From the NCBI GenBank assembly GCA_964016885.1, contig OZ024741.1, positions 374,542,001 through 374,606,000 of the forward strand: a DNA stretch of 64,000 nt, given 5' to 3'. Shown in pieces: positions 1 to 55,931 of this stretch; within the stretch, counting starts at the first letter, position 1; the number at the start of each line of letters is the position of its first letter. The translations under genes and the position numbers were made by a program. This DNA is from Eledone cirrhosa. Taxonomy: Eukaryota. Under the pieces are notes generated by a model. It made no database searches and was not told where the DNA came from. It saw nothing but the letters and a program-made list of their open reading frames with translations.

Positions 1-3000
1 TCTGATTATGTGTTGTATGTGGTCCTAGACGTGTGAATTATCTGATTATCTGTTGTATGTGGTCCTAGATGTGTGCATCATCTGATTATGTGTTGTATGT
101 GGTCCTAGATGTGTGTATTATCTGATTATGTGTTGTATGTGGTCCTAGACGTGTGAATTATCTGATTATCTGTTGTATGTGGTCCTAGACGTGTGTATTA
201 TATGATTATGTGTTGTATGTGGTCCTAGATGTGTGTATTATCTGATTATGTGTTGTATGTGGTCCTAAACGTGTGTATTATCTGATTATGTGTTGTATGT
301 GATCCTAGATGTGTGTATTATCTGATTATGTGTTGTATGTGCTCCTAGACGTGTGAATTATCTGATTATCTGTTGTATGTGGTCCTAGACGTGTGTATTA
401 TATGATTATGTGTTGTATGTGGTCCTAGATGTGTGTATTATCTGATTATGTGTTGTATGTGGTCCTAGACGTGTGTATTATCTGATTATGTGCTGTATGT
501 GGTCCTAGACGTGTGTATTATCTGATTATGTGTTGTATGTGGTCCTAGATGTGTGTATTATCTCATTATGTGTTGCATGTGGTCCTAGATGTGTGTATTA
601 TCTGATTATGTGTTGTATGTGTTCCTAAACGTGTGTATTATCTGATTATGTGTTGTATGTGGTCCTAGACGTGTGTATTATCTGATTATGTGTTGTATGT
701 GGTCCTAGATGTGTGTATTATCTGATTATGTGTTGTATGTGGTCCTAGATGTGTGTATTATCTGATTATGTGTTGTATGTGGTCCTAGATGTGTGTATTA
801 TCTGATTATGTGTTGTATGTGGTCCTAGACGTGTGTATTATCTGATTATGTGTTGTATGTGGTCCTAGATGTATGTATTATCTGATTATGTGTTGTATGT
901 GGTCCTAGATGTGTGTATTATATGATTATGTGTTGTATGTGGTCATAGACGTGTGAATTATCCGATTATCTGTTGTATGTGGTCCTAGATGTGTGTATTA
1001 TCTGATTATGTGTTGTATGTGGTCCTAGACGTGTGAATTATCTGATTATCTGTTGTATGTGGTCCTAGATGTGTGTATTATCTGATTATGTTTTGTATGT
1101 GATCCTAGATGTGTGTATTATCTGATTATGTGTTGTATGTGGTCCTAGACGTGTGTATTATCTGATTATGTGTTGTAGGTGGTCCTAGACGTGTGTATTA
1201 TCAGATTATGTGTTGTATGTGGTCCTAGATGTGTGTATTATCTGATTATGTGTTGTATGTGGTCCTAGACGTGTGTATTATCTGGTAATGTGTTGTATGT
1301 GGTCCTAGATGTGTGTATTATCTGATTATGTGTTGTATGTGGTCCTAGATGTGTGTATTATCTGATTATGTGTTGTATGTGGTCCTAGACGTGTGTATTA
1401 TCTGATTATGTGTTGTATGTTGTCCTAGACGTGTGTATTATCTGATTATGTGTTGTATGTGGTCCTAGACGTGTGTATTATCTGATTATGTGTTGTATGT
1501 CGTCCTAGATGTGTGTATTATCTGATTATGTGTTGTATGTGGTCCTAGACGTGTGTATTATCTGGTAATGTGTTGTATGTGGTCCTAGATGTGTGTATTA
1601 TCTGATTATGTGTTGTATGTGGTCCTAGATGTGTGTATTATCTGATTATGTGTTGTATGTGGTCCTAGACGTGTGTATTATCTGATTATGTGTTGTATGT
1701 GGTCCTAGACGTGTGTATTATCTCATTATGTGTTGTATGTGGTCCTAGATGTATGTATTATCTGATTATGTGTTGTATGTGGTCCTAGACGTGTGTATTA
1801 TCTGATTATGTGTTGTATGTGGTCCTAGATGTGTGTATTATCTGATTATGTGTTGTATGTGGTCGTAGACGTGTGTATTATCTGATTATGTGTTGTATGT
1901 GGTCGTAGACGTGTGTATTATCTGATTATGTGTTGTATGTGGTCCTAGATGTGTGTATTATCTGATTATGTGTTGTATGTGGTCGTAGACGTGTGTATTA
2001 TCTGATTATGTGTTGTATGTGGTCGTAGACGTGTGTATTATCTGATTATGTGTTGTATGTGGTCCTAGATGTGTGTATTATCTGATTATGTGTTGTATGT
2101 GGTCGTAGACGTGTGTATTATCTGATTATGTGTTGTATGTGGTCGTAGACGTGTGTATTATCTGATTATGTGTTGTATGTGGTCCTAGATGTGTGTATTA
2201 TCTGATTATGTGTTGTATGTGGTCGTAGACGTGTGTATTATCTGATTATGTGTTGTATGTGGTCGTAGACGTGTGTATTATCTGATTATGTGTTGTATGT
2301 GGTCCTAGATGTGTGTATTATCTGATTATGTGTTGTATGTGGTCGTAGACGTGTGTATTATCTGATTATGTGTTGTATGTGGTCGTAGACGTGTGTATTA
2401 TCTGATTATGTGTTGTATGTGGTCGTAGACGTGTGTATTATCTGATTATGTGTTGTATGTGGTCCTAGATGTGTGTATTATCTGATTATCTGTTGTATGT
2501 GGTCCTAGATGTGTGCATCATCTGATTATGTGTTGTATGTGGTCCTAGATGTGTGTATTATCTGATTATGTGTTGTATGTGGTCCTAGACGTGTGTATTA
2601 TCTGATTATGTGTTGTATGTGGTCCTAGATGTGTGTATTATCTGATTATGTGTTGTATGTGGTCCTAGACGTGTGTATTATCTGGTAATGTGTTGTATGT
2701 GGTCCTAGATGTGTGTATTATCTGATTATGTGTTGTATGTGGTCCTAGATGTGTGTATTATCTGATTATGTGTTGTATGTGGTCCTAGATGTGTGTATTA
2801 TCTGATTATGTGTTGTATGTGGTCCTAGATGTGTGTATTATCTGATTATGTGTTGTATGTGGTCCTAGACGTGTGAATTATCTGATTATCTGTTGTATGT
2901 GGTCCTAGACGTGTGTATTATACGATTATGTGTTGTATGTGGTCCTAGATGTGTGTATTATCTCAGTATGTGTTGTATGTGGTCCTAGATGTGTGTATTA

Positions 3001-6000
3001 TCTCAGTATGTGTTGTATGTGGTCCTAGACGTGTGTATTATCTGATTATGTGTTGTATGTGGTCCTAGACGTGTGTATTATCTGGTAATGTGTTGTATGT
3101 GGTCCTAGATGTGTGTATTATCTGATTATGTGTTGTATGTGGTCCTAGACGTGTGAATTATCTGATTATCTGTTGTATGTGGTCCTAGACGTGTGTATTA
3201 TACGATTATGTGTTGTATGTGGTCCTAGATGTGTGTATTATCTCAGTATGTGTTGTATGTGGTCCTAGATGTGTGTATTATCTCAGTATGTGTTGTATGT
3301 GGTCCTAGACGTGTGTATTATCTGATTATGTGTTGTATGTGGTCATAGACGTGTGTATTATCTGGTAATGTGTTGTATGTGGTTCTAGATGTGTGTATTA
3401 TCTCATTATGTGTTGTATGTGGTCCTAGACGTGTGTATTATCTGATTATGTGTTGTATGTGGTCCTAGACGTGTGTATTATCTGGTAATGTGTTGTATGT
3501 GGTCCTAGATGTGTGTATTATCTGATTATGTGTTGTATGTGGTCCTAGACGTGTGTATTATACGATTATGTGTTGTATGTGGTCCTAGATGTGTGTATTA
3601 TCTCAGTATGTGTTGTATGTGGTCCTAGACGTGTGTATTATCTGGTAATGTGTTGTATGTGGTCCTAGATGTGTGTATTATCTGATTATGTGTTGTATGT
3701 GGTCCTAGATGTGTGTATTATCTGATTATGTGTTGTATGTGGTCCTAGATGTGTGTATTATCTGATTATGTGTTGTATGTGGTCCTAGACGTGTGAATTA
3801 TCTGATTATCTGTTGTATGTGGTCCTAGACGTGTGTATTATACGATTATGTGTTGTATGTGGTCCTAGATGTGTGTATTATCTCAGTATGTGTTGTATGT
3901 GGTCCTAGATGTGTGTATTATCTCAGTATGTGTTGTATGTGGTCCTAGACGTGTGTATTATCTGATTATGTGTTGTATGTGGTCCTAGACGTGTGTATTA
4001 TCTGGTAATGTGTTGTATGTGGTCCTAGATGTGTGTATTATCTGATTATGTGCTGTATGTGGTCCTAGATGTGTGTATTATCTGATTATGTGTTGTATGT
4101 GGTCCTAGATGTGTGTATTATCTGATTATGTGTTGTATGTGGTCCTAGACGTGTGAATTATCTGATTATCTGTTGTATGTGGTCCTAGACGTGTGTATTA
4201 TCTGATTATGTGATGTATGTGGTCCTAGACGTGTGTATTATCTGGTAATGTGTTGTATGTGGTCCTAGATGTGTGTATTATCTGATTATGTGTTGTATGT
4301 GGTCCTAGATGTGTGTATTATCTGATTATGTGTTGTATGTGGTCCTAGACGTGTGTATTATCTGATTATGTGTTGTATGTGGTCCTAGATGTGTGTATTA
4401 TCTGATTATGTGTTGTATGTGGTCCTAGATGTGTGTATTATCTCAGTATGTGTTGTATGTGGTCCTAGATGTGTGTATTATCTCAGTATGTGTTGTATGT
4501 GGTCCTAGATGTGTGTATTATCTTATTATGTGTTGTATGTGGTCCTAGACGTGTGTATTATCTGATTATGTGTTGTATGTGGTCCTAGACGTGTGTATTA
4601 TCTGATTATGTGTTGTATGTGGTCCTAGACGTGTGTATTATCTGATTATGTGTTGTATGTGGTCCTAGACGTGTGTATAATCTGATTATGTGTTCTATGT
4701 GGTCCTAGATGTGTGTATTATCTCAGTATGTGTTGTATGTGGTCCTAGATGTGTGTATTATCTCAGTATGTGTTGTATGTGGTCCTAGATGTGTGTATTA
4801 TCTTATTATGTGTTGTATGTGGTCCTAGACGTGTGTATTATCTGATTATGTGTTGTATGTGGTCCTAGACGTGTGTATTATCTGATTATGTGTTGTATGT
4901 GGTCCTAGATGTGTGTATTATCTGATTATGTGTTGTATGTGGTCCTAGACGTGTGTATTATCTGATTATGTGTTGTATGTGGTCCTAGACGTGTGTATTA
5001 TCTGATTATGTGTTGTATGTTGTCCTAGACGTGTGTATTATCTGATTATGTGGTCCTAGACATGTGTATTATCTGATTATGAGTTGTATGTGGTCCTAGA
5101 CGTGTGTATTATCTGATTATGTGTTGTATGTGGTCCTAGACGTGTGTATTATCTGATTATGTGTTGTATGTGGTCCTAGACGTGTGTATTATCTGATTAT
5201 GTGTTGTATGTTGTCCTAGACGTGTGTATTATCTGATTATGTGTTGTATGTGGTCCTAGACGTGTGTATTATCTGATTATGTGTTGTATGTTGTCCTAGA
5301 TGTGTGTATTATCTGATAATGTGTTGTATGTGGTCCTAGACGTGTGTATTATCTGATTATGTGTTGTATGTGGTCCTAGACGTGTGTATTATCTGATTAT
5401 GTGTTGTATGTGGTCCTAGACGTGTGTATTATCTGATTATGTGTTGTATGTGGTCCTAGATGTGTGTATTATCTGATTATGTGTTGTATGTGGTCCTAGA
5501 TGTGTGTATTATCTGATTATGTGTTGTATGTGGTTCTAGATGTGTGTATTATCTGATTATGTGTTGTATGTGGTCCTAGATGTGTGTATTATCTGATTAT
5601 GTGTTGTATGTGGTCCTAGATGTGTATATTATCTGATTACGTGTTGTATGTGGTCCTAGATGTGTGTATTATCTGATTATGTGCTGTATGTGGTCCTACA
5701 TGTGTGTATTATCTGATTATGTGGCCTAGATGTGTGTATTATCTGATTATCTGTTGTATGTAGTCCTTGATGTGTGTATTATCTGATTATCTGTTGTATG
5801 TGGTCCTAGATGTGTGTATTATCTGATTAAGTGTTGTATGTGGTCCTAGATGTGTCTATTATCTGATTATGTGGTCCTAGATGTGTGTATTATCTGATTA
5901 TGTGTTGTATGTGGTCCTAGATGTGTGTATTATCTGATTATGTGTTGTATGTGGTCCTAGATGTGTGTATTATCTGATTATGTTTTGTATGTGGTCCTAG

Positions 6001-9000
6001 ATGTGTGTATTATCTGATTATGTGTTGTATGTGGCCCTAGATGTGTGTATTATCTGATTATGTGTTGTACGTGGTCCTAGATGTGTGTATTATCTGATTA
6101 TGTGTTGTATGTGGTCCTAGACGTGTGTATTATCTGATTATGTGTTGTACGTGGTGCTAGACGTGTGTATTATTTGATTATGTGTTGTATGTGGTCCTAG
6201 ATGTGTGTATTATCTGATTATGTGTTGTATGTGGTCCTAGACGTGTGTATTACCTGATTATGTGTTGTATGTGGTCCTAGACGTGTGTATTATCTGATTA
6301 TGTGTTGTATGTGGTCCTAGATGTGTGTATTATCTGATTATGTGTTGTATGTGGTCCTAGACGTGTGTATTATCTGGTAATGTGTTGTATGTGGTCCTAG
6401 ATGTGTGTATTATCTGATTATGTGTTGTATGTGGTCCTAGATGTGTGTATTATCTGATTATGTGTTGTATGTGGTCCTAGACGTGTGTATTATCTGATTA
6501 TGTGTTGTATGTGGTCCTAGACGTGTGTATTATCTCATTATGTGTTGTATGTGGTCCTAGATGTATGTATTATCTGATTATGTGTTGTATGTGGTCCTAG
6601 ACGTGTGTATTATCTGATTATGTGTTGTATGTGGTCCTAGATGTGTGTATTATCTGATTATGTGTTGTATGTGGTCGTAGACGTGTGTATTATCTTATTA
6701 TGTGTTGTATGTGGTCGTAGACGTGTGTATTATCTGATTATGTGTTGTATGTGGTCCTAGATGTGTGTATTATCTGATTATGTGTTGTATGTGGTCGTAG
6801 ACGTGTGTATTATCTGATTATGTGTTGTATGTGGTCGTAGACGTGTGTATTATCTGATTATGTGTTGTATGTGGTCCTAGATGTGTGTATTATCTGATTA
6901 TGTGTTGTATGTGGTCGTAGACGTGTGTATTATCTGATTATGTGTTGTATGTGGTCGTAGACGTGTGTATTATCTGATTATGTGTTGTATGTGGTCCTAG
7001 ATGTGTGTATTATCTGATTATGTGTTGTATGTGGTCGTAGACGTGTGTATTATCTGATTATGTGTTGTATGTGGTCGTAGACGTGTGTATTATCTGATTA
7101 TGTGTTGTATGTGGTCCTAGATGTGTGTATTATCTGATTATGTGTTGTATGTGGTCGTAGACGTGTGTATTATCTGATTATGTGTTGTATGTGGTCGTAG
7201 ACGTGTGTATTATCTGATTATGTGTTGTATGTGGTCGTAGACGTGTGTATTATCTGATTATCTGTTGTATGTGGTCCTAGATGTGTGCATCATCTGATTA
7301 TGTGTTGTATGTGGTCCTAGATGTGTGTATTATCTGATTATGTGTTGTATGTGGTCCTAGACGTGTGTATTATCTGATTATGTGTTGTATGTGGTCCTAG
7401 ATGTGTGTATTATCTGATTATGTGTTGTATGTGGTCCTAGACGTGTGTATTATCTGGTAATGTGTTGTATGTGGTCCTAGATGTGTGTATTATCTGATTA
7501 TGTGTTGTATGTGGTCCTAGATGTGTGTATTATCTGATTATGTGTTGTATGTGGTCCTAGATGTGTGTATTATCTGATTATGTGTTGTATGTGGTCGTAG
7601 ACGTGTGTATTATCTGATTATGTGTTGTATGTGGTCGTAGACGTGTGTATTATCTGATTATGTGTTGTATGTGGTCCTAGATGTGTGTATTATCTGATTA
7701 TCTGTTGTATGTGGTCCTAGATGTGTGCATCATCTGATTATGTGTTGTATGTGGTCCTAGATGTGTGTATTATCTGATTATGTGTTGTATGTGGTCCTAG
7801 ACGTGTGTATTATCTGATTATGTGTTGTATGTGGTCCTAGATGTGTGTATTATCTGATTATGTGTTGTATGTGGTCCTAGACGTGTGTATTATCTGGTAA
7901 TGTGTTGTATGTGGTCCTAGATGTGTGTATTATCTGATTATGTGTTGTATGTGGTCCTAGATGTGTGTATTATCTGATTATGTGTTGTATGTGGTCCTAG
8001 ATGTGTGTATTATCTGATTATGTGTTGTATGTGGTCCTAGATGTGTGTATTATCTGATTATGTGTTGTATGTGGTCCTAGACGTGTGAATTATCTGATTA
8101 TCTGTTGTATGTGGTCCTAGACGTGTGTATTATACGATTATGTGTTGTATGTGGTCCTAGATGTGTGTATTATCTCAGTATGTGTTGTATGTGGTCCTAG
8201 ATGTGTGTATTATCTCAGTATGTGTTGTATGTGGTCCTAGACGTGTGTATTATCTGATTATGTGTTGTATGTGGTCCTAGACGTGTGTATTATCTGGTAA
8301 TGTGTTGTATGTGGTCCTAGATGTGTGTATTATCTGATTATGTGTTGTATGTGGTCCTAGACGTGTGAATTATCTGATTATCTGTTGTATGTGGTCCTAG
8401 ACGTGTGTATTATACGATTATGTGTTGTATGTGGTCCTAGATGTGTGTATTATCTCAGTATGTGTTGTATGTGGTCCTAGATGTGTGTATTATCTCAGTA
8501 TGTGTTGTATGTGGTCCTAGACGTGTGTATTATCTGATTATGTGTTGTATGTGGTCATAGACGTGTGTATTATCTGGTAATGTGTTGTATGTGGTTCTAG
8601 ATGTGTGTATTATCTGATTATGTGTTGTATGTGGTCCTAGACGTGTGTATTATCTGATTATGTGTTGTATGTGGTCCTAGACGTGTGTATTATCTGGTAA
8701 TGTGTTGTATGTGGTCCTAGATGTGTGTATTATCTGATTATGTGTTGTATGTGGTCCTAGACGTGTGTATTATACGATTATGTGTTGTATGTGGTCCTAG
8801 ATGTGTGTATTATCTCAGTATGTGTTGTATGTGGTCCTAGACGTGTGTATTATCTGGTAATGTGTTGTATGTGGTCCTAGATGTGTGTATTATCTGATTA
8901 TGTGTTGTATGTGGTCCTAGATGTGTGTATTATCTGATTATGTGTTGTATGTGGTCCTAGATGTGTGTATTATCTGATTATGTGTTGTATGTGGTCCTAG

Positions 9001-12000
9001 ACGTGTGAATTATCTGATTATCTGTTGTATGTGGTCCTAGACGTGTGTATTATACGATTATGTGTTGTATGTGGTCCTAGATGTGTGTATTATCTCAGTA
9101 TGTGTTGTATGTGGTCCTAGATGTGTGTATTATCTCAGTATGTGTTGTATGTGGTCCTAGACGTGTGTATTATCTGATTATGTGTTGTATGTGGTCCTAG
9201 ACGTGTGTATTATCTGGTAATGTGTTGTATGTGGTCCTAGATGTGTGTATTATCTGATTATGTGTTGTATGTGGTCCTAGATGTGTGTATTATCTGATTA
9301 TGTGTTGTATGTGGTCCTAGATGTGTGTATTATCTGATTATGTGTTGTATGTGGTCCTAGACGTGTGAATTATCTGATTATCTGTTGTATGTGGTCCTAG
9401 ACGTGTGTATTATCTGATTATGTGATGTATGTGGTCCTAGACGTGTGTATTATCTGGTAATGTGTTGTATGTGGTCCTAGATGTGTGTATTATCTGATTA
9501 TGTGTTGTATGTGGTCCTAGATGTGTGTATTATCTGATTATGTGTTGTATGTGGTCCTAGACGTGTGTATTATCTGATTATGTGTTGTATGTGGTCCTAG
9601 ATGTGTGTATTATCTGATTATGTGTTGTATGTGGTCCTAGATGTGTGTATTATCTCAGTATGTGTTGTATGTGGTCCTAGATGTGTGTATTATCTCAGTA
9701 TGTGTTGTATGTGGTCCTAGATGTGTGTATTATCTTATTATGTGTTGTATGTGGTCCTAGACGTGTGTATTATCTGATTATGTGTTGTATGTGGTCCTAG
9801 ACGTGTGTATTATCTGATTATGTGTTGTATGTGGTCCTAGACGTGTGTATTATCTGATTATGTGTTGTATGTGGTCCTAGACGTGTGTATAATCTGATTA
9901 TGTGTTCTATGTGGTCCTAGATGTGTGTATTATCTCAGTATGTGTTGTATGTGGTCCTAGATGTGTGTATTATCTTATTATGTGTTGTATGTGGTCCTAG
10001 ACGTGTGTATTATCTGATTATGTGTTGTATGTGGTCCTAGACGTGTGTATTATCTGATTATGTGTTGTATGTGGTCCTAGATGTGTGTATTATCTGATTA
10101 TGTGTTGTATGTGGTCCTAGACGTGTGTATTATCTGATTATGTGTTGTATGTGGTCCTAGACGTGTGTATTATCTGATTATGTGTTGTATGTTGTCCTAG
10201 ACGTGTGTATTATCTGATTATGTGGTCCTAGACATGTGTATTATCTGATTATGAGTTGTATGTGGTCCTAGACGTGTGTATTATCTGATTATGTGTTGTA
10301 TGTGGTCCTAGACGTGTGTATTATCTGATTATGTGTTGTATGTGGTCCTAGACGTGTGTATTATCTGATTATGTGTTGTATGTTGTCCTAGACGTGTGTA
10401 TTATCTGATTATGTGTTGTATGTGGTCCTAGACGTGTGTATTATCTGATTATGTGTTGTATGTTGTCCTAGATGTGTGTATTATCTGATAATGTGTTGTA
10501 TGTGGTCCTAGACGTGTGTATTATCTGATTATGTGTTGTATGTGGTCCTAGACGTGTGTATTATCTGATCATGTGTTGTATGTGGTCCTAGACGTGTGTA
10601 TTATCTGATTATGTGTTGTATGTGGTCCTAGATGTGTGTATTATCTGATTATGTGTTGTATGTGGTCCTAGATGTGTGTATTATCTGATTATGTGTTGTA
10701 TGTGGTTCTAGATGTGTGTATTATCTGATTATGTGTTGTATGTGGTCCTACATGTGTGTATTATCTGATTATGTGTTGTATGTGGTCCTAGATGTGTATA
10801 TTATCTGATTACGTGTTGTATGTGGTCCTAGATGTGTGTATTATCTGATTATGTGCTGTATGTGGTCCTACATGTGTGTATTATCTGATTATGTGGCCTA
10901 GATGTGTGTATTATCTGATTATCTGTTGTATGTAGTCCTTGATGTGTGTATTATCTGATTATCTGTTGTATGTGGTCCTAGATGTGTGTATTATCTGATT
11001 AAGTGTTGTATGTGGTCCTAGATGTGTCTATTATCTGATTATGTGGTCCTAGATGTGTGTATTATCTGATTATGTGTTGTATGTGGTCCTAGATGTGTGT
11101 ATTATCTGATTATGTTTTGTATGTGGTCCTAGATGTGTGTATTATCTGATTATGTGTTGTATGTGGTCCTAGATGTGTGTATTATCTGATTATGTGTTGT
11201 ACGTGGTCCTAGATGTGTGTATTATCTGATTATGTGTTGTATGTGGTCCTAGACGTGTGTATTATCTGATTATGTGTTGTATGTGGTGCTAGACGTGTGT
11301 ATTATTTGATTATGTGTTGTATGTGGTCCTAGATGTGTGTATTATCTGATTATGTGTTGTATGTGGTCCTAGACGTGTGTATTACCTGATTATGTGTTGT
11401 ATGTGATCCTAGATATGTGTATTATCTGATTATGTGTTGTATGTGGTCCTAGATGTGTGTATTCTCTGATTATGTGTTGTATGTGGTCCTAGATGTGTGT
11501 ATTATCTGATTATGTGTTGTATGTTGTCCTAGATGTGTGTATTATCTGATTATGTGTTGTATGTGGTCCTAGACGTTTGTATTATCTGCTTATGTGTTGT
11601 ATGTGGTCCTAGATGTGTGTATTATCTGATTATGTGTTGTATGTGGTTCTAGACGTGTGTATTGTCTGATTATGTGTTGTATGTGGTCCTAGACGTGTGT
11701 ATTATCTGATTATGTGTTGTATGTCGTCCTATACGTGTGTATTATCTGATTATGTGTTGTATGTGGTCCTAGATGTGTGTATTATCTGATTATGTATTGT
11801 ATGTGGTCCTAGATGTGTGTATTATCTGATTATGTGTTGCATGGGGTCCTAGATGTGTGTATTATCTGATTATGTGTTGTATGTCGTCCTAGACGTGTGT
11901 ATTATCTGATTATGTGTTGTATGTGGTCCTAGATGTGTGTATTATCTGATTATGTATTGTATGTGGTCCTAGATGTGTGTATTATCTGATTATGTATTGT

Positions 12001-14363
12001 ATGTGGTCCTAGACGTGTGTATTATCTGATTATGTGTTGTATGTGGTCCTAGATGTGTGTATTATCTGATTATGTGTTGTATGTGGTCCTAGATGTGTGT
12101 ATTATCTGATTAAGTGTTGTATGTCGTCCTAGACGTGTGTATTATCTGATTATGTGTTGTATGTGGTCCTAGATGTGTGTATTATCTGATTATGTATTGT
12201 ATGTGGTCCTAGATGTGTGTATTATCTGATTATGTATTGTATGTGGTCCTAGACGTGTGTATTATCTGATTATGTGTTGTATGTGGTCCTAGATGTGTGT
12301 ATTATCTGATTATGTGTTGTATGTGGTCCTAGATGTGTGTATTATCTGATTATGTGTTGTATGTCGTCCTAGACGTGTGTATTATCTGATTATGTGTTGT
12401 ATGTGGTCCTAGATGTGTGTATTATCTGATTATGTATTGTATGTGGTCCTAGATGTGTGTATTATCTGATTATGTGTTGCATGGGGTCCTAGATGTGTGT
12501 ATTATCTGATTATGTGTTGTATGTCGTCCTAGACGTGTGTATTATCTGATTATGTGTTGTATGTGGTCCTAGATGTGTGTATTATCTGATTATGTATTGT
12601 ATGTGGTCCTAGATGTGTGTATTATCTGATTATGTATTGTATGTGGTCCTAGACGTGTGTATTATCTGATTATGTGTTGTATGTGGTCCTAGATGTGTGT
12701 ATTATCTGATTATGTGTTGTATGTGGTCCTAGATGTGTGTATTATCTGATTATGTGTTGTATGTCGTCCTAGACGTGTGTATTATCTGATTATGTGTTGT
12801 ATGTGGTCCTAGATGTGTGTATTATCTGATTATGTATTGTATGTGGTCCTAGATGTGTGTATTATCTGATTATGTGTTGTATGGGGTCCTAGATGTGTGT
12901 ATTATCTGATTATGTGTTGTATGTGGTCCTAGACGTGTGAATTATCTGATTATCTGTTGTATGTGGTCCTAGACGTGTGTATTATCTGATTATGTGTTGT
13001 ATGTGGTCCTAGACGTGTGTATTATCTGATTATGTGTTGTATGTGGTCCTAGACGTGTGTATTATCTGATTATGTGTTGTATGTGGTCCTAGACGTGTGT
13101 ATTATCTGATTTTGTGTTGTATGTGGTCCTAGATGTGTGTATTATCTGATTATGTGTTGTATGGGGTCCTAGACGTGTGTATTATCTGATTATGTGTTGT
13201 ATGTGGTCCTAGACGTGTGTATTATCTGATTATGTGTTGTATGTGGTCCTAGACGTGTGTATTATCTTATTATGTGTTGTATGTGGTCCTAGACGTGTGT
13301 ATTATCTGATTTTGTGTTGTATGTGGTCCTAGATGTGTGTATTATCTGATTATGTGTTGTATGTGGTCCTAGATGTGTGTATTATCTGATTATGTGTTGT
13401 ATGTGGTCCTAGATGTGTGTATTATCTGATTATGTGGTCCTAGATGTGTGTATTATCTGATTATGTGTTGTATGTGGTCCTAGATGTGTGTATTATCTGA
13501 TTATGTGGTCCTAGATGTGTGTATTATTCGATTATCTGTTGTATGTGATCCTAGATGTGTGTATTATCTGATTATGTGTTGTATGTGGTCCTAGATGTGT
13601 GTATTATCTGATTATCTCTTGTATGTGGTCCTAGGCGTGTGTATTATCTGATTATGTGTTGTATGTGGTCCTAGATGTGTGTATTATCTGACTATGTGTT
13701 GTATGTGGTCCTAGATGTGTGTATTATCTGATTATGTGTTGTATGTGGTCCTAGATGTGTGTATTATCTGATTATTTGTTGTATGTGGTCTTAGATGTGT
13801 GTATTATCTGACTATGTGTTGTATGTGGTCCTAGATGTGTTTATTATCTGATTATCTGTTGTATGTGGTCCTAGACGTGTGTATTATCTGATTATGTGTT
13901 GTATGTGGTCCTAGATGTGTGTATTATCTGATTATGTGTTGTATGTGGTCCTAGACGTGTGTATTATCTGATTATGTGTTGTATGTGGTCCTAGACGTGT
14001 GTATTATCTGATTATGTGTTGTATGTGGTCCTAGATGTGTGTATTATCTGATTATGTGTTGTATGTGGTCCTAGATGTGTGTATTATCTGATTATGTGTT
14101 GTATGTTGTCCTAGATGTGTGTATTATCTGATTATGTGTTGTATGTGGTCCTAGATGTGTATATTTTCTGATTATGTGTTGTATGTGGTCCTAGATGTGT
14201 GTATTATCTGATTATGTGTTGTATGTGGTCCTAGATGTGTGTATTATCTGATTGTGTTGTATGTGGTCCTAGATGTGAGTATTATCTGATTATGTGTTGT
14301 ATGTGGTCCTAGATGTGTGTATTATCTGATTATGTGTTGTATGTGGTCCTAGATGTGTGTATT
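1..14363. repeat. 40-bp tandem satellite array (~360 copies, runs off the window start)
   Basis: Unit TCTGATTATGTGTTGTATGTGGTCCTAGAYGTGTGTATTA repeated continuously with scattered SNPs and a few ~9-bp deletion monomers; abrupt end at ~14363. Confidence 0.99.
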
Positions 14364-18539: not shown

Positions 18540-18810
18540 TTTGGGATAGGAGATAGAGAAAGTAAGAGACAGACGTAAGAGTGAAGTGATAGAATGATAG
18601 ATAGACAAACAGAGAGATAAAGATAAATAGATAGATATACAGGAAGATAGATATGTTTCTTTATTGATATAGAAAGACATATAGATAGATAGAGAAAGAG
18701 TAAAAGATATAGAGAGTGAAAGAAAAGAAAAAAGAAAGAAAACCTGTAAGTGAATGTAGAAAGAGAGAGAGGGAGAGAAAGGCTAAGACAGAGAGAGAAA
18801 GCAGAAGAGT
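18540..18810. repeat. Purine-rich (GA/GATA) low-complexity tract
   Basis: Degenerate AGAG/ATAG repeats immediately upstream of the putative promoter. Confidence 0.7.
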
Positions 18811-18829
18811 GTAGTCGACTCCCCGGTAA

Positions 18830-18852
18830 CGACCTTGAGCTTCCATATAAGG
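18830..18852 (+). promoter_or_regulatory. Putative pyruvate kinase proximal promoter motifs: ERR-like site and CArG/TATA-like box
   Basis: CGACCTTGA (reverse complement TCAAGGTCG, near the ERRE TCAAGGTCA) at 18830-18838 and CCATATAAGG (CC[A/T]6GG) at 18843-18852, in a locally CpG-rich patch. Confidence 0.35.
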
Positions 18853-18874
18853 AAAGGACGCGGTGATTGTTAAG

Positions 18875-19030
18875 AGCGAAGGTCGTTTAAAACGGGTGAA
18901 GGTTGTCTTCCTCTGCTACCACCACCACTACTAATATTACCACCACTACTAATACTAGCTCTGCTGGTTGTCGCACTCATCACTCCACACCACATTATCA
19001 CTTTTCTCCTTTCTACTGTTAACCATCAAG
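18875..19030 (+). other. Putative non-coding first exon (5' UTR) of pyruvate kinase
   Basis: ATG-free unique sequence after the promoter-like motifs, ending in the donor AAG|GTACTT at 19030/19031. The first coding exon starts with ATG directly after an acceptor, so an upstream exon is required. The start coordinate is approximate. Confidence 0.4.
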
Positions 19031-19817
19031 GTACTTATATTATGCTTCATAATTCTTATTAACCTATCTAAAAAAAAAAAAGAAAATATATTCTTTTACA
19101 GGCAATGTATAATTTCAAGTTTATAGACATCTCTGTGCTGTTTCTTTCCAATACCTAATTCTATTGATGACATTCGATTTATTCTTCCCGTTTATTATTA
19201 TTTTCTTCTTCATTTTGAATGTTTTCAATTCCTGACGTTATTTTAAATTTTCAATGTATGTTTAATTTTTGTTTTTATCTTTGGGATATTTATTATTTGT
19301 TTAAACGTGTATTTAAAGCTGCTATAATTGTATTGCAGTGTAGTTATATATAAATATATACACAAGTTTAAACGATTTATAAAAAAAAAAAGGGGTATAT
19401 ATCACTTGAGAAAACAATTAGTATTTTGTACATATATATATATATATACAGAGCAAATAATATATAAGAAAATATACATACTTCAATGTGGTAACAAGTC
19501 TACGAGATATATATATATATCTATATATATATATCTATATATATATCTATATATATATAATGTCTACTTCGTTAATATAAGCGTAATATGTATTTTTTTT
19601 ATGTAGTTAGCGAGCTTTAAAGTCGCTACACTAACGAAGATGCTTTCATACCAAACCTTTAATTCTAAACAATTATTAACATTTTATACAGATTATCACA
19701 CGGACAGTTAATTATATTAGCTTCATACGCATTTATTTCCAAGATATTTTAAGAGATGGTCCGTCTTATACGGACCTCCTAGAAATATATATATGTTATT
19801 CCGGGTTAAACCACAAT

Positions 19818-19870
19818 AAGCTTCCTGATGATTTCTCACGAATGAAACAGTTCTAGTCCTGTAGAAGCTT
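19818..19870 (+). ncRNA. Type I hammerhead ribozyme candidate (copy 1)
   Basis: AAGCUUC-CUGAUGA-U UUC(UCAC)GAA U-GAAA-CAG(UUCUAGUC)CUG-UA/GAAGCUU: perfect 7-bp stem I, intact core, 4-bp stem III, GUA cleavage after 19863, U-U at the base of stem II. Confidence 0.65.
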
Positions 19871-19909
19871 TTCTACAGGACTAGAACTGTTTCATTCGTA
19901 TGAAATTAG

Positions 19910-19961
19910 GACATTCCTGATGATTCCATACGAATGAAACGGTTCTAGTCCTGTAGAAGTC
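19910..19961 (+). ncRNA. Type I hammerhead ribozyme candidate (copy 2)
   Basis: GAC(A)UUC-CUGAUGA-UUCCAUACGAAU-GAAA-CGG(UUCUAGUC)CUG-UA/GAAGUC; 92 nt downstream of copy 1, with a weaker stem II. Confidence 0.5.
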
Positions 19962-20487
19962 ATTATATATATAATATATAATATATATATATAAAGTATG
20001 TGTAGACTTAATTATGTCCTGATGTAAAGAAAAACTCAAAAGACAAGTGTAGTTCTAGTCATATATATGTATTGTCTTTTAATGTGAAAAAGGAAAGACA
20101 GTAATGTCATGGTTGGAAACCTTGTTCAATCATGATTGACTATACAGCTGCCACAATTTATTAAAGCAACCGTTATTATGCAATTTACCTCAATATTGTA
20201 ACTATTTCCCATACTTCTAATGGCTGTAACATTGTGCAAATTTTCGGTTTTTGTCTCCGATTATAATCCAAGAGGTCATTTGTTTTCGCATCGTTTAAGT
20301 CGTGGATATATGTCTATATATATATATATATTTCTTTCTCCTCGGATGATGATCGTATTAAGTGTTTTCCTTTTCATGTTATTCATATATATTAAATAAC
20401 ATTACAAATTGTTTATAATTCTTACAGAATGAAAATATAAACACATATAATAAATACAATTAATTATTGCTAGGAACCTCACAAATA

Positions 20488-46700: not shown

Positions 46701-47108
46701 TCTCTCTCTCTCCAGCTCGCTCTCACTCTTGCTCGCTCTCTCTCGCTCTCTTTCTCTCGCTCTCTTTCTCAAAATATTCTGTTCATGGCATCAGGAAAGC
46801 ATTATATATAATAAAATGTTTAAAATTGAAATAGTTGAACTTTTGTACACTCAGAAATTTCACTGACACTCCATACTGCTCCCCCTCCTCACACTTCCAT
46901 CAATCTGTTGAGGGGGAAAGGGTGTTCTAATTTATCACATTGGGAACCACTTTGTTTAATAGCTGCAGTTTGTAAATTGATCATTCTGTTAGTGGTAATC
47001 AGCCTTGCCACCCAGAGCTTTCTGCTACGGTGGAAAGGATGAAAAATACAATATATTCTCATGTTATTTATTGAACGTTTTGCAATGAAAGACGTATATC
47101 ATTTTCAG

Positions 47109-47250
47109 CCTGGCAGTGAACTTCAAACAAATGTGCATTCACAACAACTTCAGGCAGCTTGTGCCAGATCTCAGTTGGAACATATGGTGGCATTAGATAT
47201 TGATTCTGAACCATGTCATGTTCGTATGAGCGGAATCATCTGTACTATAG
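47109..47250 (+). CDS. PKM: Pyruvate kinase coding exon 2 (PGSELQ...[10 protein letters not shown])
   Basis: AG/GT borders, 142 nt; LEH..LDIDS and IICTIG motifs. Confidence 0.95.
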
Positions 47251-50200: not shown

Positions 50201-50570
50201 AAAATACAAGAATATGGTGTGGCCTAGTGGTTAAGATGTTGGACTTAGCCATAATGTTGGGGTATCAATTCCTCATTTGAGCAGTACAGTGTTTTTGAGA
50301 AAGATACTTCATTTTACATTGCTTCAGTTCACTTGACTGAAACAAAGAAAGAGTACTATTAGCAGTAGCTGGGAGGTGACCACTGCAACAAATTGGTATC
50401 CAGTCCAAAGGTTTTTTTTTTTTTTCTTTTTTTTTCTAATAGGACTGGAATCTTTTTCATTGAGCCCCCCCGCACACACACAAAAAAACCCTCTTGTGTG
50501 AGGCCAGCTAAACCTACTTAGGTGTGCGCTGTAACAAAATATGAATATGTAAATTTTATCTAATTTATAG

Positions 50571-50662
50571 GTCCAGCTTGCAAAGACGTGGAAATTCTGA
50601 AAAAGATGATGATTGAAGGGATGGATGTCGCCAGGCTTAATTTTTCTCATGGATCATATGAA
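50571..50662 (+). CDS. PKM: Pyruvate kinase coding exon 3 (PACKDV...[11 protein letters not shown])
   Basis: 92 nt, RLNFSHG motif, phases match. Confidence 0.97.
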
Positions 50663-50765
50663 GTAATATAACATCTACTTTTAAACCTTTATCTCTTCAA
50701 ATATTCATTTTAGTGATTGTATTTATGATTATATTTATATATGATCTCTCTCTCTCTCATGTTTG

Positions 50766-50803
<38 letters not shown>

Positions 50804-51121
50804 TCGGTCATTTTAATGTCTGCTTTCCCTGCTAGCAACAGTTACAACCACAGTGCCATACCAGGGATGTAAGTTTTGTTGGCCCTCCAGACTAATGTAA
50901 CTTACACACCTGGTATGGCGCTGCAGTAGTAATTGGCTTCAATAATTATATTAAAACTCTATGGACTTGAGTTGCTCTATACCTTGGATATCTTTACCAA
51001 ACTCTGAACTATTAAATATATATACAAGGTATCCCCAAAAATGTATACACACTTCAACAGTATTCTAATAAATATTGCCTGTATAGGTAATCAGTGTATA
51101 TACATTTTTTGGAAGCTTGTG

Positions 51122-51164
<43 letters not shown>

Positions 51165-51806
51165 TGTCCAACCTTTGCTAACATGTAAAACTTAGGTTAA
51201 GTATGTGTCTGTGTGTATACATATGTATATATGTGTAATATGCACAAACACTGAGATGCTCCAAAATGTTTAGAGCTTGATTATAAAATAAGTATTCTTT
51301 TATCTTATTAAGTTGGATAGAAAATGTTTGGAATATTGATAATTAGACATATACACATGCACACTTCTTACAAATATTATGTTTTATATTTATGAAATTA
51401 AGAGAAGTCTTCAGTGTAAAATTAGTGATTAACTTCAACTCAAAATATTGTTAACTCTTTTGATACCAGCCCACCTAAAACTGCCTCTTGTTCTGTACAA
51501 AATCGTTTATTTTAAAGAGTGTTCCAAACACTAACTTAATAAGACAGTTATATTAAATCCCTCTAAATTGTTTTTTTATTTTGAAAATCATAGGCAGTGT
51601 CTTTCATGAGGACCATGGTCATGAAAGGATTAAGGTTTCATTGGTTGGTTGAAATGCTTGAGATTTTTTTTTTTCCTGCATGAATGAATATTGAAAATGT
51701 ATATTTTCATATTTTATGTTTCACTGTAATCTTATTTTGTTAAATCTATCATGTACAAATAGAGAGAAATATTTATTTTTTACACCTGAAAATTTCTTTG
51801 TTTCAG

Positions 51807-51926
51807 TACCATGGTGAAACTATTAAGAATGTGAGAGAAGCTACCCAAAAGTTTGATAAACCAAAAATCATTGCTATTGCACTGGATACAAAAGGCCCTG
51901 AGATAAGAACTGGTCTTCTGAAGGGT
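51807..51926 (+). CDS. PKM: Pyruvate kinase coding exon 4 (YHGETI...ALDTKGPEIRTGLLKG)
   Basis: 120 nt, DTKGPEIRT motif. Confidence 0.97.
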
Positions 51927-52312
51927 GTAAGTTTGAAATATGTTCTTTGTCAGAGCAAATTCCTCATCTTTTGTGGCATACTTAACTCTTTTGATATCCT
52001 CTAGTTTTAAACTGACCATTTTTTAAAAGTAAAACCTTTCATCATAATTTTACCTAAGAACTCTTAGTTATGTTCCATATACCAACTTAGCAAAACATTT
52101 TTTTACTAAGTTCTTCCAAATTCTTGATCATTTCAAAATTAATTCAAACACAAGGCCAGTGTTTCATAAGAAATATAGTCCCTAAATGTTTAAATTAATT
52201 TCTAAGGAAGTAATGGAAAGATTAAATGATACAGTGATCTTTTCCTTTTTTTTTCTAATTGATATTTGGTTTGACATTTCTTAATGATTTTAATACCTTA
52301 AAACTGTTTCAG

Positions 52313-52499
52313 GGAGCTTCAGCTGAAATATCTTTGAAAACTGGAGGAAAAATAAAGATTACAACAGACTCTAATTTTGCTGAGAGTTGTGATGAAAATA
52401 TTTTGTATGTTGATTACAAAAACATTACCAAAGTCATGAAAGTAGGATCTCGAATGTTCATTGATGATGGCTTAATTTCTGTGGTTGTTAAGGAAATGG
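52313..52499 (+). CDS. PKM: Pyruvate kinase coding exon 5 (B domain)
   Basis: 187 nt; YVDYKNI and FIDDGLIS. Confidence 0.97.
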
Positions 52500-52794
52500 G
52501 TAAGATATATTCAACATCATTAAGATAATCTCAGAATTGCATCTGAGTATAGAGAAGTATTTTGATGGAGTGTTAGTGCCCCCCAAAAATGCATCCACCA
52601 CACACACTGTAAAGTTGTAGTGCTGGTGCCATGATAAAATGTACCCAGTACATTCTGTTAATGGGTTGGTGTACCCAGTACACTGTAAAATGGTTAGCGT
52701 TAGGAAGGGCGTCCAACCGTGGAAATCGTGCCTAAAATAAAATGAGAGCCGTCGGCCAACTAATGCCTTGTGAGGAAATTTGGTAGAATGAAAA

Positions 52795-53872
52795 CTGAAC
52801 CTAAGGCCACAAGAGAAGGTATTCTCTGGCTGACTTGTGTGTGCTGAGTGGTCTGGATCTCTGGAAAGTCAGTTGGGAGTGATAATCCCGATTTTTAAGT
52901 GACGAGAGATTGCTCCAATTATAGATGGATCTCCTTAAGCCTCCTCGGTAAAGTCTGTGTTTGGCAAAGAGTTGTAGAGAGATTGCCGGGTCCAAGCTAA
53001 CTGATGAACAATGTGGTTTTCGCCTTAGACGCAGCACATCTGACCAAATATTTACACTGCAGCAGGTATTCGAGAAACCATGGTAGTACTGCCAAGAGGT
53101 ATATTCTTGCTTTGCAGACCTTGAAAAGGCATGAGACTATGTTCCACAGGACCTGTTGTGGTAGGTTCTGCAGGAGTATAGGATCGATAGTCAGCTTCTT
53201 GTCCTGATGTCTGTATATGAATACTGTGAAAACTGAGATACTCGTCCTCTCAAGGAGAAGTTCAATTGTCTTGGGGCCATGTGCCATGTTCACGAGTGTT
53301 GGAAGGCAGGAGGCTAAATTAAGTGCAAGAGTTGCAGGAACTGGTGCAGTAATGTGCAAACTTCAGCATCCTGTAATTAAAAGGGAGGTAGGTGTAAAAA
53401 CCAAACTCACTATCTTCAATTCGGCATTTGTGTCAACCCTAACCTATTGGTCATGAATCTTTGGTAATGACTGAAAGAATTCAATTGTGAATACAAGCAG
53501 TTGAAATGGGGTTCCTCCAAAGGGTCTTTGGAGTAATGTTACTCGATAGTGCGTAGCTCAGAGATTAGTGAGTCACTCCAGAGCTGCTACTTCTCCGAAT
53601 TGAGAGATCACAGTTCCGGTACTATGGGCATCTGGTTAGAATGTCTCAGGGGAAAGAATCGTTGGACAAATTTTATGGTCAAAACCAACTAGCAGGAGAC
53701 TGAGGTAGACCCTGAGCAAGATGGTTAGATAACCATCCATGACCTCGGCTGGTCTCGTATGCGGATCCAGCCGGATCAGTTAGAAATGGTTGCTTCTGAC
53801 AGGACCCACTGGAAGGAGTTTTTGAGGACTCTGCTCCCATGACCTACTCAGGAATAAGTGGGAGAAGAAGGA
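52795..53872 (+). mobile_element. Internally deleted RTE-like LINE in a pyruvate kinase intron
   Basis: NYRWISLLSLLGKV, DEQCGFR, DLEKA, STLTYW and a (GAA)n tail; homologous to 27135-27745. Confidence 0.8.
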
Positions 53873-54216
53873 AACTGTGTGGCTTGTGGGCTTGTTCGTG
53901 TGTGTGTGTGGGGGGGGGGGTTACTTTAACTATTATAATCATTAGAGTGAAGTTAATATAGTTATAAGTTAACATTTATTGCATGATCATTTAACATTAG
54001 TTTTCTCTTTCTCTTCTTAACCAGGCTATTAAAATGGTGAAATAGACATTAAAACCTCTTAAAATTACAGATTCTTTTTTTAAATTCATATAACTAGTAC
54101 AAGGATTAAAAAGTTAAGGCAATTTTGTTAATTTGATATTAAAGATATATTTCATTTTTTTTTTTGTGTTTTGGTTTTATAAAACCCAGATTAAAATTGG
54201 TTGTTTAAAATTGTAG

Positions 54217-54359
54217 GTTCTGATTATATGGATTGTGAAATTGAAAATGGTGGTGATCTTGGTAGTAAGAAAGGTTGCAATTTGCCAGGAATTCCTGTAG
54301 ATTTACCTGCTGTGTCAGAAAAGGACAAACAAGATTTGCTATTTGGTGTAGAACATGGT
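54217..54359 (+). CDS. PKM: Pyruvate kinase coding exon 6 ([25 protein letters not shown])
   Basis: 143 nt, AG/GT borders. Confidence 0.97.
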
Positions 54360-54469
54360 GTACGTAGAAATTAAAAAGTTTTTCTTTGCATTTTCAGAAA
54401 TTGTTTTTGAATATTAGTGTTTTATAAGACTTCCTCATTTTCCATTGTTTTTTTTTTAATTTTAATTAG

Positions 54470-54597
54470 GTTGATATGGTATTTGCTTCTTTTATAAGAA
54501 GTGCTGATGGTGTTCAAGAAATCAGGAAAGTTCTAGGAGAGAAAGGAAAAGATATTAAAATTTTTGTGAAAATTGAAAACCACCAAGGAGTGAAAAA
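54470..54597 (+). CDS. PKM: Pyruvate kinase coding exon 7 ([10 protein letters not shown]...KIENHQGVK)
   Basis: 128 nt, catalytic KIEN motif. Confidence 0.97.
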
Positions 54598-55060
54598 GTA
54601 ATTATTTATTATTGAATTTGAGGATGGTTGATTGGTAGAATTGTGAGAGATGTACAATAATGCTTTGCATTATTGTCTCTGTTATGTTCAAATCCCTCCA
54701 AAGTTAACTTTGCATTTCAGCTTTTCTGGGGTTGATAAAGTACCAGTTAAGTATTGGGGTCAATTGACTTGACCTCCCTTGAAAAATTGCTGGTCTTATC
54801 ATCTTTGTTTTTACAATTTTTCCACACTTGCATGGATTAGACAGGTTCTTTTCAGCACAGCATCTCTCTACATGCCGCATTCCTTTGCCATCTCTTTGCT
54901 CAGGTCTTTCTTGATCTACCTCTATGATGACTTCTTTCCTGGCATTCTTCACCCAGAGTGCCTAAATTTGAAATTGATTTAGAATTGAATTTTATCTTGT
55001 TTTTTTTTTAAAATTATTTTTCATTGAAAGTCTTTGAATGTTTCATTACTTCTGTTTCAG

Positions 55061-55211
55061 CTTTGATGAAATCTTGAAAGAAACTGATGGTGTTATGGTC
55101 GCACGTGGTGATTTGGGTATTGAGATTCCTCCTGAAAAAGTGTTTCTAGCTCAGAAGATGATGATAGCTAAATGCAATAAAGCTGGAAAGCCCATTATTT
55201 GTGCCACTCAG
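55061..55211 (+). CDS. PKM: Pyruvate kinase coding exon 8 ([12 protein letters not shown]...ICATQ)
   Basis: 151 nt, ARGDLG motif. Confidence 0.98.
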
Positions 55212-55218
55212 GTGTGTA

Positions 55219-55255
<37 letters not shown>

Positions 55256-55270
55256 TTATTTATCTATTAA

Positions 55271-55390
55271 TTTATTATAGAAATTACTTCTACAGGACTA
55301 GAACTGTTTCATTTGTAAGAATTCAGGACTTTCCTGATGATTTCTTATGAATGAAAGTTCTAGTCCCATAGAAGTTATTTCTATAATAAA
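55271..55390. repeat. Intronic inverted repeat containing a degenerate hammerhead of the 19.8-kb family
   Basis: Arms TTTATTATAGAAAT.ACTTCTA..GGACTAGAAC and GTTCTAGTCC..TAGAAGT.ATTTCTATAATAAA; CTGATGA at 55334, GAAA at 55353, stem III damaged. Confidence 0.75.
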
Positions 55391-55931
55391 ATGAATATGC
55401 CTATACTCCAACATATTGAGTACCAGTTTTGACAGTGGTTGCCTCTCAATTTACATTGGGATCTTAGACATAAATATATAGATAATTGGTGTCATTTTCA
55501 TTACATAGTTACTTGTATTATTGAGCAATTGAGGTTCTATACTCACAGTTCATTGGTTAAAGAGACCATTCTTGATCTTGTGTTGTAGCTTTAATCCCAC
55601 CCACATTTGGGTGCCATTAAGTAGAATCTAGTCTGTTGCAAACATTCAGCTAAATCTCTGAGGTCAGCTTCCTCCTTTTCCCCCACCAGTCTTAGAGACT
55701 CTGAAAAATATAATGGATGTGGTTTTCCATATTCTTGATTAAGTTACAAAAAATAAATCCTATAACAATGTATTTCTAAGCTTACACAGGTTATACAATG
55801 ATTTATCTTGCCTCAGTAATGCCTTGAGTAGATATGCAATCTTGCTAACACAATTGTATGTAAAGATGAGTAAGTATTGTTATTGGCCATTACCTGATAT
55901 TTTCATTACAATTTTCAATTTATTTTATCAG

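What the first reader, a model, noticed from the sequence alone, without database searches (positions are those of the whole stretch)
19818..19961. Tandem sense hammerhead ribozymes with a built-in antisense copy in the putative first intron of pyruvate kinase
Seen: two + strand copies of CUGAUGA...GAAA with stems I and III and a GUA cleavage triplet (predicted cuts after 19863 and 19955, 92 nt apart). Between them (19871-19906) is an inverted partial copy that can pair with either ribozyme. Known: type I hammerheads occur in Penelope-like elements and metazoan retrozymes, and tandem cleavage releases monomers. Inferred: folding competition between ribozyme and hairpin could gate co-transcriptional cleavage of the pre-mRNA about 800 nt after the putative first donor, or release a 92-nt RNA. 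The dsRNA would also be an ADAR substrate, so editing might tune the switch. It may equally be an inert transposon relic.
Basis: partly seen in the sequence, partly recalled or inferred. Interest (0 to 1): 0.75.

Follow-up and report, generated by a model that had tools for sequence, protein, structure and literature searches.

The report
Stacked Penelope transposon stumps with hammerheads
The two hammerhead-ribozyme motifs and the mirror-image copy between them are real, but they are end fragments of a Penelope-type jumping gene with more than 12,000 pieces in this genome, likely stacked in one TA repeat by chance and predicted to be mostly shut off by the hairpin, so they are likely debris and not a pyruvate-kinase switch.

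Summary
In detail: sense motifs with C3 at 19825 and 19917, an inverted arm at 19871-19913, GUA cut sites after 19863 and 19955. The motif lies in the terminal repeat (pLTR) of a Penelope-like retroelement with Hydra-clade protein motifs. One 30-nt pLTR word has 12,506 exact matches in the genome. Head-to-head 'antisense + sense' stumps are the family's usual insertion product (66 of 139 sampled copies), and a second one sits at 55268-55470. Copy 1 (subfamily A) and the palindrome (subfamily B) come from different subfamilies, joined at a 5-nt microhomology. Folding puts copy 2's hammerhead fold at about 1e-9 or less, so release of a 92-nt RNA is unlikely. Copy 1 can fold in only about 1% of molecules. 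The 'first intron' is unverified: the first PK coding exon is 27 kb downstream. Side result: copy 5' ends pile up at the ribozyme's 5' edge, about 31 nt after a conserved TATA box, not at the cut site, so the template is likely uncut RNA starting at the ribozyme. The scan has found such octopus stumps, and this start-site pattern, before on other DNA.

The parts
19785..19794 (.). Left (TA)n target flank
   Evidence: the family's 3' ends abut (TA)n in most loci
19795..19819 (-). Inverted, internally deleted 3' terminus of the pLTR
   Evidence: blastn of a natural pLTR copy hits 19810-19785 at 92%; the same junction type is seen in L046 and L060
19819..19870 (+). Hammerhead motif copy 1, subfamily A (loop II UCAC); stem I 19818-19824/19864-19870, core 19825-19831, predicted cut after 19863; begins at the family's 5'-end hot spot (-6 from C3)
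   Evidence: 1,067 exact genomic matches to the subfamily pattern
19871..19875 (.). 5-nt microhomology (TTCTA) joining the subfamily-A stump to the subfamily-B palindrome
   Evidence: read from the sequence against the A continuation and B inverted arms printed
19871..19913 (-). Inverted arm, subfamily B (loop II AUAC); its own CUGAUGA core has lost 3 nt
19911..19964 (+). Hammerhead motif copy 2, subfamily B; core 19917-19923, C.A mismatch in stem II, G.U in stem III, bulged stem I, predicted cut after 19955; palindrome centre 19912-19914
   Evidence: 419 exact matches to the subfamily pattern; 89 sites with the exact palindrome-centre pattern
19965..19995 (.). Right (TA)-rich flank
55268..55470 (.). 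Second, more decayed head-to-head stump of the same family, in a PK intron just after the exon ending at 55212
47073..47244 (+). First recognisable pyruvate kinase coding exon (context only), about 27 kb downstream of the finding
   Evidence: later PK exons at 50552-56069 by PF00224

Best explanation
This is a stack of three truncated ends of a very abundant Penelope-like retrotransposon whose terminal repeat carries a type I hammerhead motif, and it is likely inert debris and not a host switch. How it likely arose: (1) SHOWN: the motif lies in a ~630-nt terminal unit that runs straight into an RT + GIY-YIG ORF with Hydra-clade motifs. (2) SHOWN: short copies mostly begin at the 5' edge of the hammerhead and often carry an inverted copy there. 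(3) INFERRED: that edge is the element's own transcription start (a TATA box lies 35-37 nt before C3 in three subfamilies), so reverse transcriptase copies an uncut RNA to its first base. The mirror arm is then made by snap-back priming or by joining two cDNAs primed on opposite strands; I cannot tell which. (4) INFERRED: a subfamily-A stump and a subfamily-B palindrome landed in the same TA tract and were fused through a 5-nt microhomology, giving sense/antisense/sense. (5) PREDICTED: in any RNA the 36-bp hairpin traps one copy at all times. Copy 2 cannot fold as a hammerhead, and copy 1 can in about 1% of molecules, so little or no cleavage and no 92-nt product.
For: pLTR-ORF linkage in L160 and L161. 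Of 30 loci picked by this element's endonuclease end, 12 have an inverted pLTR piece within 1.5 kb upstream and 3 a sense piece starting 1.1-1.3 kb downstream, against 2 of 30 downstream hits for an unrelated PLE family, besides the query locus. GIY-YIG weak hits, E 0.005 and 0.02, below cut-off. Atlas neighbours are HTH_animal/RVT_1 clusters at 0.93-0.97. Copy numbers are 12,506, 1,067, 419 and 426 for four patterns, with reversed-pattern controls 0. An inverted arm at the hammerhead's 5' edge is seen in 26 of 69 A and 40 of 70 B copies. With an anchor 75 nt downstream of the core, 33 of 70 5' ends fall at -12..+4, 0 of 70 at -13..-94, 12 of 70 extend beyond -94, 25 of 70 fall at +8..+74, and only 3 of 70 at the cut site +/-1. 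Folding. Inverted 5' pLTRs, palindromic junctions and pLTR TATA/Inr motifs are published (PMC3846280; PMC8557442). Metazoan PLE hammerheads cut poorly or not at all alone (PMC4209133; PMC11167929).
Against: The sense/antisense/sense triple is rare: the window was the only one among 342 loci held (many were only ~500 nt long and the scan needed near-exact words). Copy 1 matches the commonest subfamily-A sequence with an intact 6-7 bp stem I, so it is not visibly decayed. The hammerhead fold looks conserved in the family (92% of cells paired, one compensatory pair in stem I, loop II varying over a constant stem), so the parent motif is probably functional. Both sense motifs lie on PK's strand. 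Nothing here tests transcription, cleavage, editing or conservation of this insertion in other species. Energy models ignore tertiary contacts and proteins, and a PLE hammerhead has been shown to cut when its protein is present (PMC11167929).
Confidence: 0.9

Rival explanations
1. Co-opted bistable switch: the hairpin first traps copy 1; when copy 2 is transcribed it takes over the antisense arm by branch migration, freeing copy 1 to cut the PK pre-mRNA, possibly tuned by A-to-I editing.
For: The two hairpin states differ by about 0.8 kcal/mol. Copy 1's fold probability returns to 0.005 once copy 2 is present, against 1e-8 to 1e-30 in between. The triple was seen once in 342 loci. The upstream 18795-19060 stretch is single-copy apart from a simple repeat and has a CArG-like box and a donor-like site.
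Against: All parts are ordinary family debris. Near-equal energies follow from near-identical copies. With over 12,000 fragments, about one per 240 kb, and a second stump in the same gene, a hit in a long PK intron needs no selection. Stem II lacks the usual G10.1-C11.1 pair. No transcript evidence links 19030 to PK.
Confidence: 0.03
2. Retrozyme-like unit: tandem hammerheads release a 92-nt monomer that circularises and spreads.
For: Two sense motifs lie 92 nt apart. Animal retrozymes are proposed to derive from PLE pLTRs (bioRxiv 10.64898/2026.07.22.740005, abstract and introduction read).
Against: The copies belong to different subfamilies and are not a head-to-tail array. The 92-nt interval is a single long hairpin (-53 kcal/mol) that includes copy 2's core, and P(copy 2 hammerhead fold) is 1e-9 alone, 5e-12 in context and 1e-37 after a first cut. 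The genome search finds the 94-nt palindrome, not the 92-nt cut-to-cut unit, as the repeated piece.
Confidence: 0.01
3. A passive by-product with a small side effect: a relic, but if transcribed the 36-bp hairpin is edited by ADAR or feeds small-RNA pathways, or copy 1 cuts at a low rate, without selected function.
For: A stable 36-bp duplex is unavoidable in either state. Heavy A-to-I editing of repeats in coleoid cephalopods is recalled knowledge, not from a call.
Against: No RNA data on this locus. It is compatible with the best explanation and differs only in degree.
Confidence: 0.06

Closest known systems
Insertion units of endonuclease-positive Penelope-like elements: pLTR with adjacent inverted 5'-truncated copy (PMC3846280, passages and Discussion read; PMC8557442, passages read)
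   Same: Head-to-head inverted arms, palindromic junction, (TA)n target, TATA/Inr-like motif in the pLTR, pLTR running directly into the ORF.
   Different: The window is a three-arm chimera of two subfamilies. The junctions are concentrated at one point (about -6 from the hammerhead's C3), which I did not see reported in the passages read.
Hydra clade of PLEs (PMC8557442 section 11 and supplement rows read), including Hydra-1_Obim
   Same: Short single ORF, C-terminal GIY-YIG, DKT motif, CxCX5C linker, CxxC and CxH motifs, (TA)n insertion, hammerhead present; the N-terminal SMKNIPIP also occurs in Hydra-1_Ajap.
   Different: RWR in place of RWK. The hammerhead listed for Hydra-1_oBim has a different sequence, and three short words of this family's pLTR were absent from the supplement, so this is a different family. 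No tree was built.
Minimal and variant type I hammerheads of metazoan PLE pLTRs (PMC4209133, parts 1-2 of 4 read)
   Same: Type I topology, full core, pLTR location, mostly solo dispersed copies, opposite-strand pairs near each other, palindromic word (CUAG) in loop III.
   Different: Stem II is short (3 bp) and lacks G10.1-C11.1; stem III is longer (4 bp with an 8-nt loop); stem I is 6 bp.
Non-LTR retrozymes of animals (bioRxiv 10.64898/2026.07.22.740005, part 1 of 5 read)
   Same: Two sense type I motifs close together; PLE origin.
   Different: Not a head-to-tail tandem repeat; an inverted arm separates and blocks the copies.

Membership tests
Type I hammerhead ribozyme | Core CUGANGA ... 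GAAA and an NUH triplet | tested here: met
   Both sense copies, GUA triplet; the inverted arm's core is broken
Type I hammerhead ribozyme | Three helices with open stem I | tested here: inconclusive
   Copy 1: all 14 modelled pairs are Watson-Crick, but P(fold) is only ~0.01. Copy 2: C.A mismatch in stem II, P ~1e-9
Type I hammerhead ribozyme | G10.1-C11.1 pair closing stem II | tested here: not met
   U.U at this position in nearly all family copies
Type I hammerhead ribozyme | Match to Rfam hammerhead models | tested here: not met
   No hit at gathering score or among 20 hits at E<=10
Type I hammerhead ribozyme | Stem covariation among relatives | tested here: inconclusive
   45 copies: 92.3% of cells paired (1/500 shuffles); only 2 pairs with a double change (248/500), one being a C-G to A-U change shared by 5 subfamily-C copies, i.e. 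one event; loop II varies over a constant stem
Type I hammerhead ribozyme | Self-cleavage | not testable with these tools
   Needs an in vitro assay or RNA end mapping
EN+ Penelope-like element pLTR | Unit flanks an RT + GIY-YIG ORF | tested here: met
   L160, L161, L069; 15 of 30 endonuclease-anchored loci have a pLTR piece within 1.5 kb
EN+ Penelope-like element pLTR | Inverted 5'-truncated copy next to the sense copy | tested here: met
   66 of 139 copies have it at the hammerhead edge
Hydra clade PLE | DKT motif, CxCX5C linker, CxxC and CxH motifs in the endonuclease, (TA)n target | tested here: met
   Read in translations of L160, L161, L069 and L114 against section 11 of PMC8557442
Hydra clade PLE | RWK motif | tested here: inconclusive
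   RWR at that place
Hydra clade PLE | Groups with Hydra RTs in a phylogeny | not tested
   Reference proteins were not available to the alignment tools
Non-LTR retrozyme | Head-to-tail tandem units, each with a complete hammerhead | tested here: not met
   Two subfamilies separated by an inverted arm

The most novel reading that the evidence does not exclude
In this Hydra-type family the hammerhead is the first 45 nt of the element's own capped transcript. The genome's thousands of palindromic stumps would then be a map of the PLE transcription start and show that head-to-head junctions come from a sense template, a point left open in PMC3846280. The window holds two such starts (19819 and 19911). 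The bolder reading, a co-opted PK switch, is put at 0.03 under rivals.
Probability: 0.6. Interest if true: 0.42.

Novelty: new member of a known kind. Interest (0 to 1): 0.16.

Why it matters
For this locus, little: it is one of thousands of fragments, and the result mainly warns that hammerhead-plus-antisense motifs in cephalopod introns are expected transposon debris. The family-level pattern matters more. The role of PLE hammerheads and the origin of their inverted ends are open questions. Here 5' ends cluster about 31 nt after a conserved TATA box and avoid the cut site, which makes 'copied from uncut, capped, sense RNA' directly testable by CAGE or 5' RACE. If the switch reading were true (about 3%), it would be a transposon-derived ribozyme gate on a glycolytic gene.

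Tried and rejected
Rfam scans found no hammerhead; the miRNA hits below gathering score reflect only the hairpin. A Neptune-like PLE next to one copy (L066) looked like the parent but has its own 3' end and no matching hammerhead: of 30 loci, only the query locus and two others carried a piece of the unit; rejected. MITE reading (fixed DNA-transposon palindrome): rejected because junction spacers differ from copy to copy (20 different spacers in 22 B copies that kept the junction word) and the arms are pLTR ends. Splice-acceptor reading of the hot spot (AG at -6/-5 in subfamilies A and C): disfavoured because copies keep the AG, share no upstream exon, and subfamily B lacks it. Extra-G (cap copy) signature: 11 of 27 A copies that lack parent sequence and keep the A at -6 have G at -7 where the parent has C, but inverted arms supply G there, so this is suggestive only. 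RNA: a run search with the last PK exon gave 24 rows, 4 holding half the words or more. Contigs of 4 runs laid on the putative first exon (18790-19330) covered only simple repeats, which proves nothing either way. No reads were laid on the finding itself, so its transcription and editing stay open. Pfam did not recognise the RT segments. Dropped rows: L034 (same locus as L033); 4 of 49 segments left out of alignment A1 because their upstream sequence did not look parental. Break points are approximate: subfamily-A parents were used, so C copies read about 5 nt short, and some diverged copies break early. Literature: 4 searches showed no paper on octopus hammerheads or on junction clustering at the start site; subscription papers are not covered, bioRxiv supplements are closed, and only the PMC8557442 supplement was searched.

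Full report
Observation. The region 19818-19964 holds two sense copies of a 46-nt motif, 91% alike and 92 nt apart, and between them an inverted arm 94% complementary to each over 36 nt. Cores start at 19825 and 19917 and the GUA triplets predict cuts after 19863 and 19955. The strong folding of the whole region (z -11.85) comes from the inverted repeat; each motif alone is no more stable than shuffles. Rfam returns no hammerhead at gathering score or at E up to 10. Stem II is 3 bp behind a U.U opposition; copy 2 also has a C.A mismatch there and a bulged stem I, and the inverted arm has lost 3 nt of its core.

It is a high-copy repeat. The host genome is 3.0 Gb; I infer an octopus from its make-up and from earlier scan notes on the same genome. 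A search with 19800-19970 gave 1,929 candidates; the 40 scored were dominated by matches to 19871-19964, i.e. antisense arm plus copy 2 as one palindrome. Exact-pattern counts are 1,067 for the copy-1 type, 419 for the copy-2 type, 89 sites for the palindrome centre and 12,506 for a 30-nt word near the unit's 3' end; reversed-pattern controls were 0. A second stump lies in this window at 55268-55470, inside a PK intron.

It is a Penelope pLTR. Walking out from copies defined a unit of about 630 nt that starts in TG/TA microsatellite and ends 3' at a fixed point followed by (TA)n. In L160 and L161 the unit runs straight into an ORF with RT and GIY-YIG endonuclease segments (GIY-YIG E 0.005 and 0.02, below Pfam's cut-off; Atlas neighbours HTH_animal and RVT_1). 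Of 30 loci chosen by the endonuclease end, 12 have an inverted pLTR piece within 1.5 kb upstream and 3 a sense piece beginning near the downstream edge. An unrelated Neptune-like family gave 2 of 30 besides its query locus. The ORF shows DKT, CxCX5C, CxxC and CxH motifs and (TA)n targeting, which define the Hydra clade in PMC8557442 (section 11 read); it has RWR for RWK, and its hammerhead differs from the one listed for Hydra-1_oBim (supplement rows). No tree was built.

Anatomy of the window locus. (TA)n, then an inverted, deleted pLTR terminus (19795-19819), then copy 1, then the palindrome, then (TA)n. Copy 1 has loop II UCAC and stem I AGCUUC/GAAGCU (subfamily A). The inverted arm and copy 2 have loop II AUAC (subfamily B). 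They meet at TTCTA (19871-19875), which is both the continuation of A and the start of the inverted B arm. So the 'tandem' is a chimera of two insertion products, by deletion between neighbours or a template switch (inferred). This triple was found only in the window among 342 loci held, by a near-exact word scan, many loci being short.

The antisense arm is routine. It abuts the hammerhead's 5' edge in 26 of 69 A copies and 40 of 70 B copies, with spacers that vary from copy to copy. Inverted 5' pLTRs and palindromic junctions are published features of these elements (PMC3846280, passages and Discussion; PMC8557442 passages), and opposite-strand hammerhead pairs were noted in PMC4209133 (parts 1-2 of 4).

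Where copies begin. Among 69 A copies, 33 lose parent homology at -5 to -9 from C3, 9 between -10 and -69, and 27 extend further; that pattern required bases to -5, so I repeated the test with an anchor 75 nt downstream of the core. Of 70 copies, 33 break at -12..+4, none at -13..-94, 12 extend beyond, 25 break at +8..+74, and 3 at the cut site +/-1. An even spread of the 58 breaks over -94..+74 would put about 6 in the first interval (my arithmetic). A TATA-like box starts at -37 to -35 in subfamilies A, B and C although the spacers differ, which places a start near -6, the first base of stem I. Inference: the template is uncut RNA beginning at the ribozyme, and the mirror arm forms where copying ends. 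Both snap-back-like and overlap-like junctions occur, so snap-back priming and joining of two cDNAs remain open; a PLE protein extends both target strands in vitro (PMC11167929 passages). I reached this before looking at earlier notes; notes on other genomes (two described as shark) say the same, and they are unreviewed leads, not support.

Is the motif a ribozyme? In 45 copies chosen for parental upstream sequence, 92.3% of cells pair (1 of 500 shuffles as high), but only two pairs show a double change, one being a single subfamily event; loop II varies over a constant stem. This is modest support for a conserved fold in the parent. The usual G10.1-C11.1 pair is missing. Published metazoan PLE hammerheads cut weakly, only as dimers or only with the element's protein, and one was dispensable for insertion in vitro (PMC4209133; PMC11167929 section 3 part 2).

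Could it work as proposed? In the energy model copy 1's full fold reaches about 0.01 only while the 3' end is at 19870-19875, falls to 2e-8 by 19880 and to 1e-30 by 19910, and returns to 0.005 once copy 2 is made. Copy 2's fold is 1e-9 alone, 5e-12 in context and 1e-37 after a first cut. The two hairpin states differ by about 0.8 kcal/mol. So a 92-nt product is very unlikely, a dimer of the two copies is blocked, and only weak cleavage at 19863 remains possible. The model omits tertiary contacts, proteins and kinetics.

Gene context. PK's first recognisable coding exon is at about 47073-47244, with later exons from 50552. The stretch before 19030 is single-copy apart from a simple repeat and has a CArG-like box at 18843, so a non-coding first exon is plausible, but no RNA evidence confirms it, and no reads were laid on the finding.

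Verdict. A real, non-random feature; a new family member of a known kind; likely inert (0.9). The switch reading is about 0.03 and the retrozyme reading 0.01. The scan has reported such octopus stumps at least 8 times, one in this genome. Interest 0.16.

Noticed in passing
G000:C2:374625850-374629320 (about 20 kb past the window's end): Three PK-domain exons on the minus strand: a second pyruvate kinase gene facing this one tail to tail.
   Followed up: no
window 55268-55470: Second head-to-head stump of the same PLE family, about 56 nt after a PK splice donor.
   Followed up: partly
window 1-14363: A 40-bp satellite, 361 copies, 94% matches.
   Followed up: no
window 18843-18852 and 19030: CArG-like box, TATA-like word and donor-like site in single-copy DNA; a possible non-coding first exon of PK.
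   Followed up: partly
L032, L068, L102, L120, L134, L163 flanks: Several unrelated minimal hammerhead families with longer stem II occur by chance in the fetched flanks, so the genome holds many PLE hammerhead families.
   Followed up: no
L066:5000-7600 and L070-L099: A young Neptune-like PLE family (1,616 candidates, top copies 98-99% identical) with no matching hammerhead motif within 1.5 kb of its endonuclease end.
   Followed up: partly
L275, L277, L279, L280, L282, L288, L311, L336: Subfamily-C copies lose similarity to the subfamily-A parent at about -147, preceded by an (A3-5T)n tract: a second shared boundary or a subfamily-specific upstream region.
   Followed up: no
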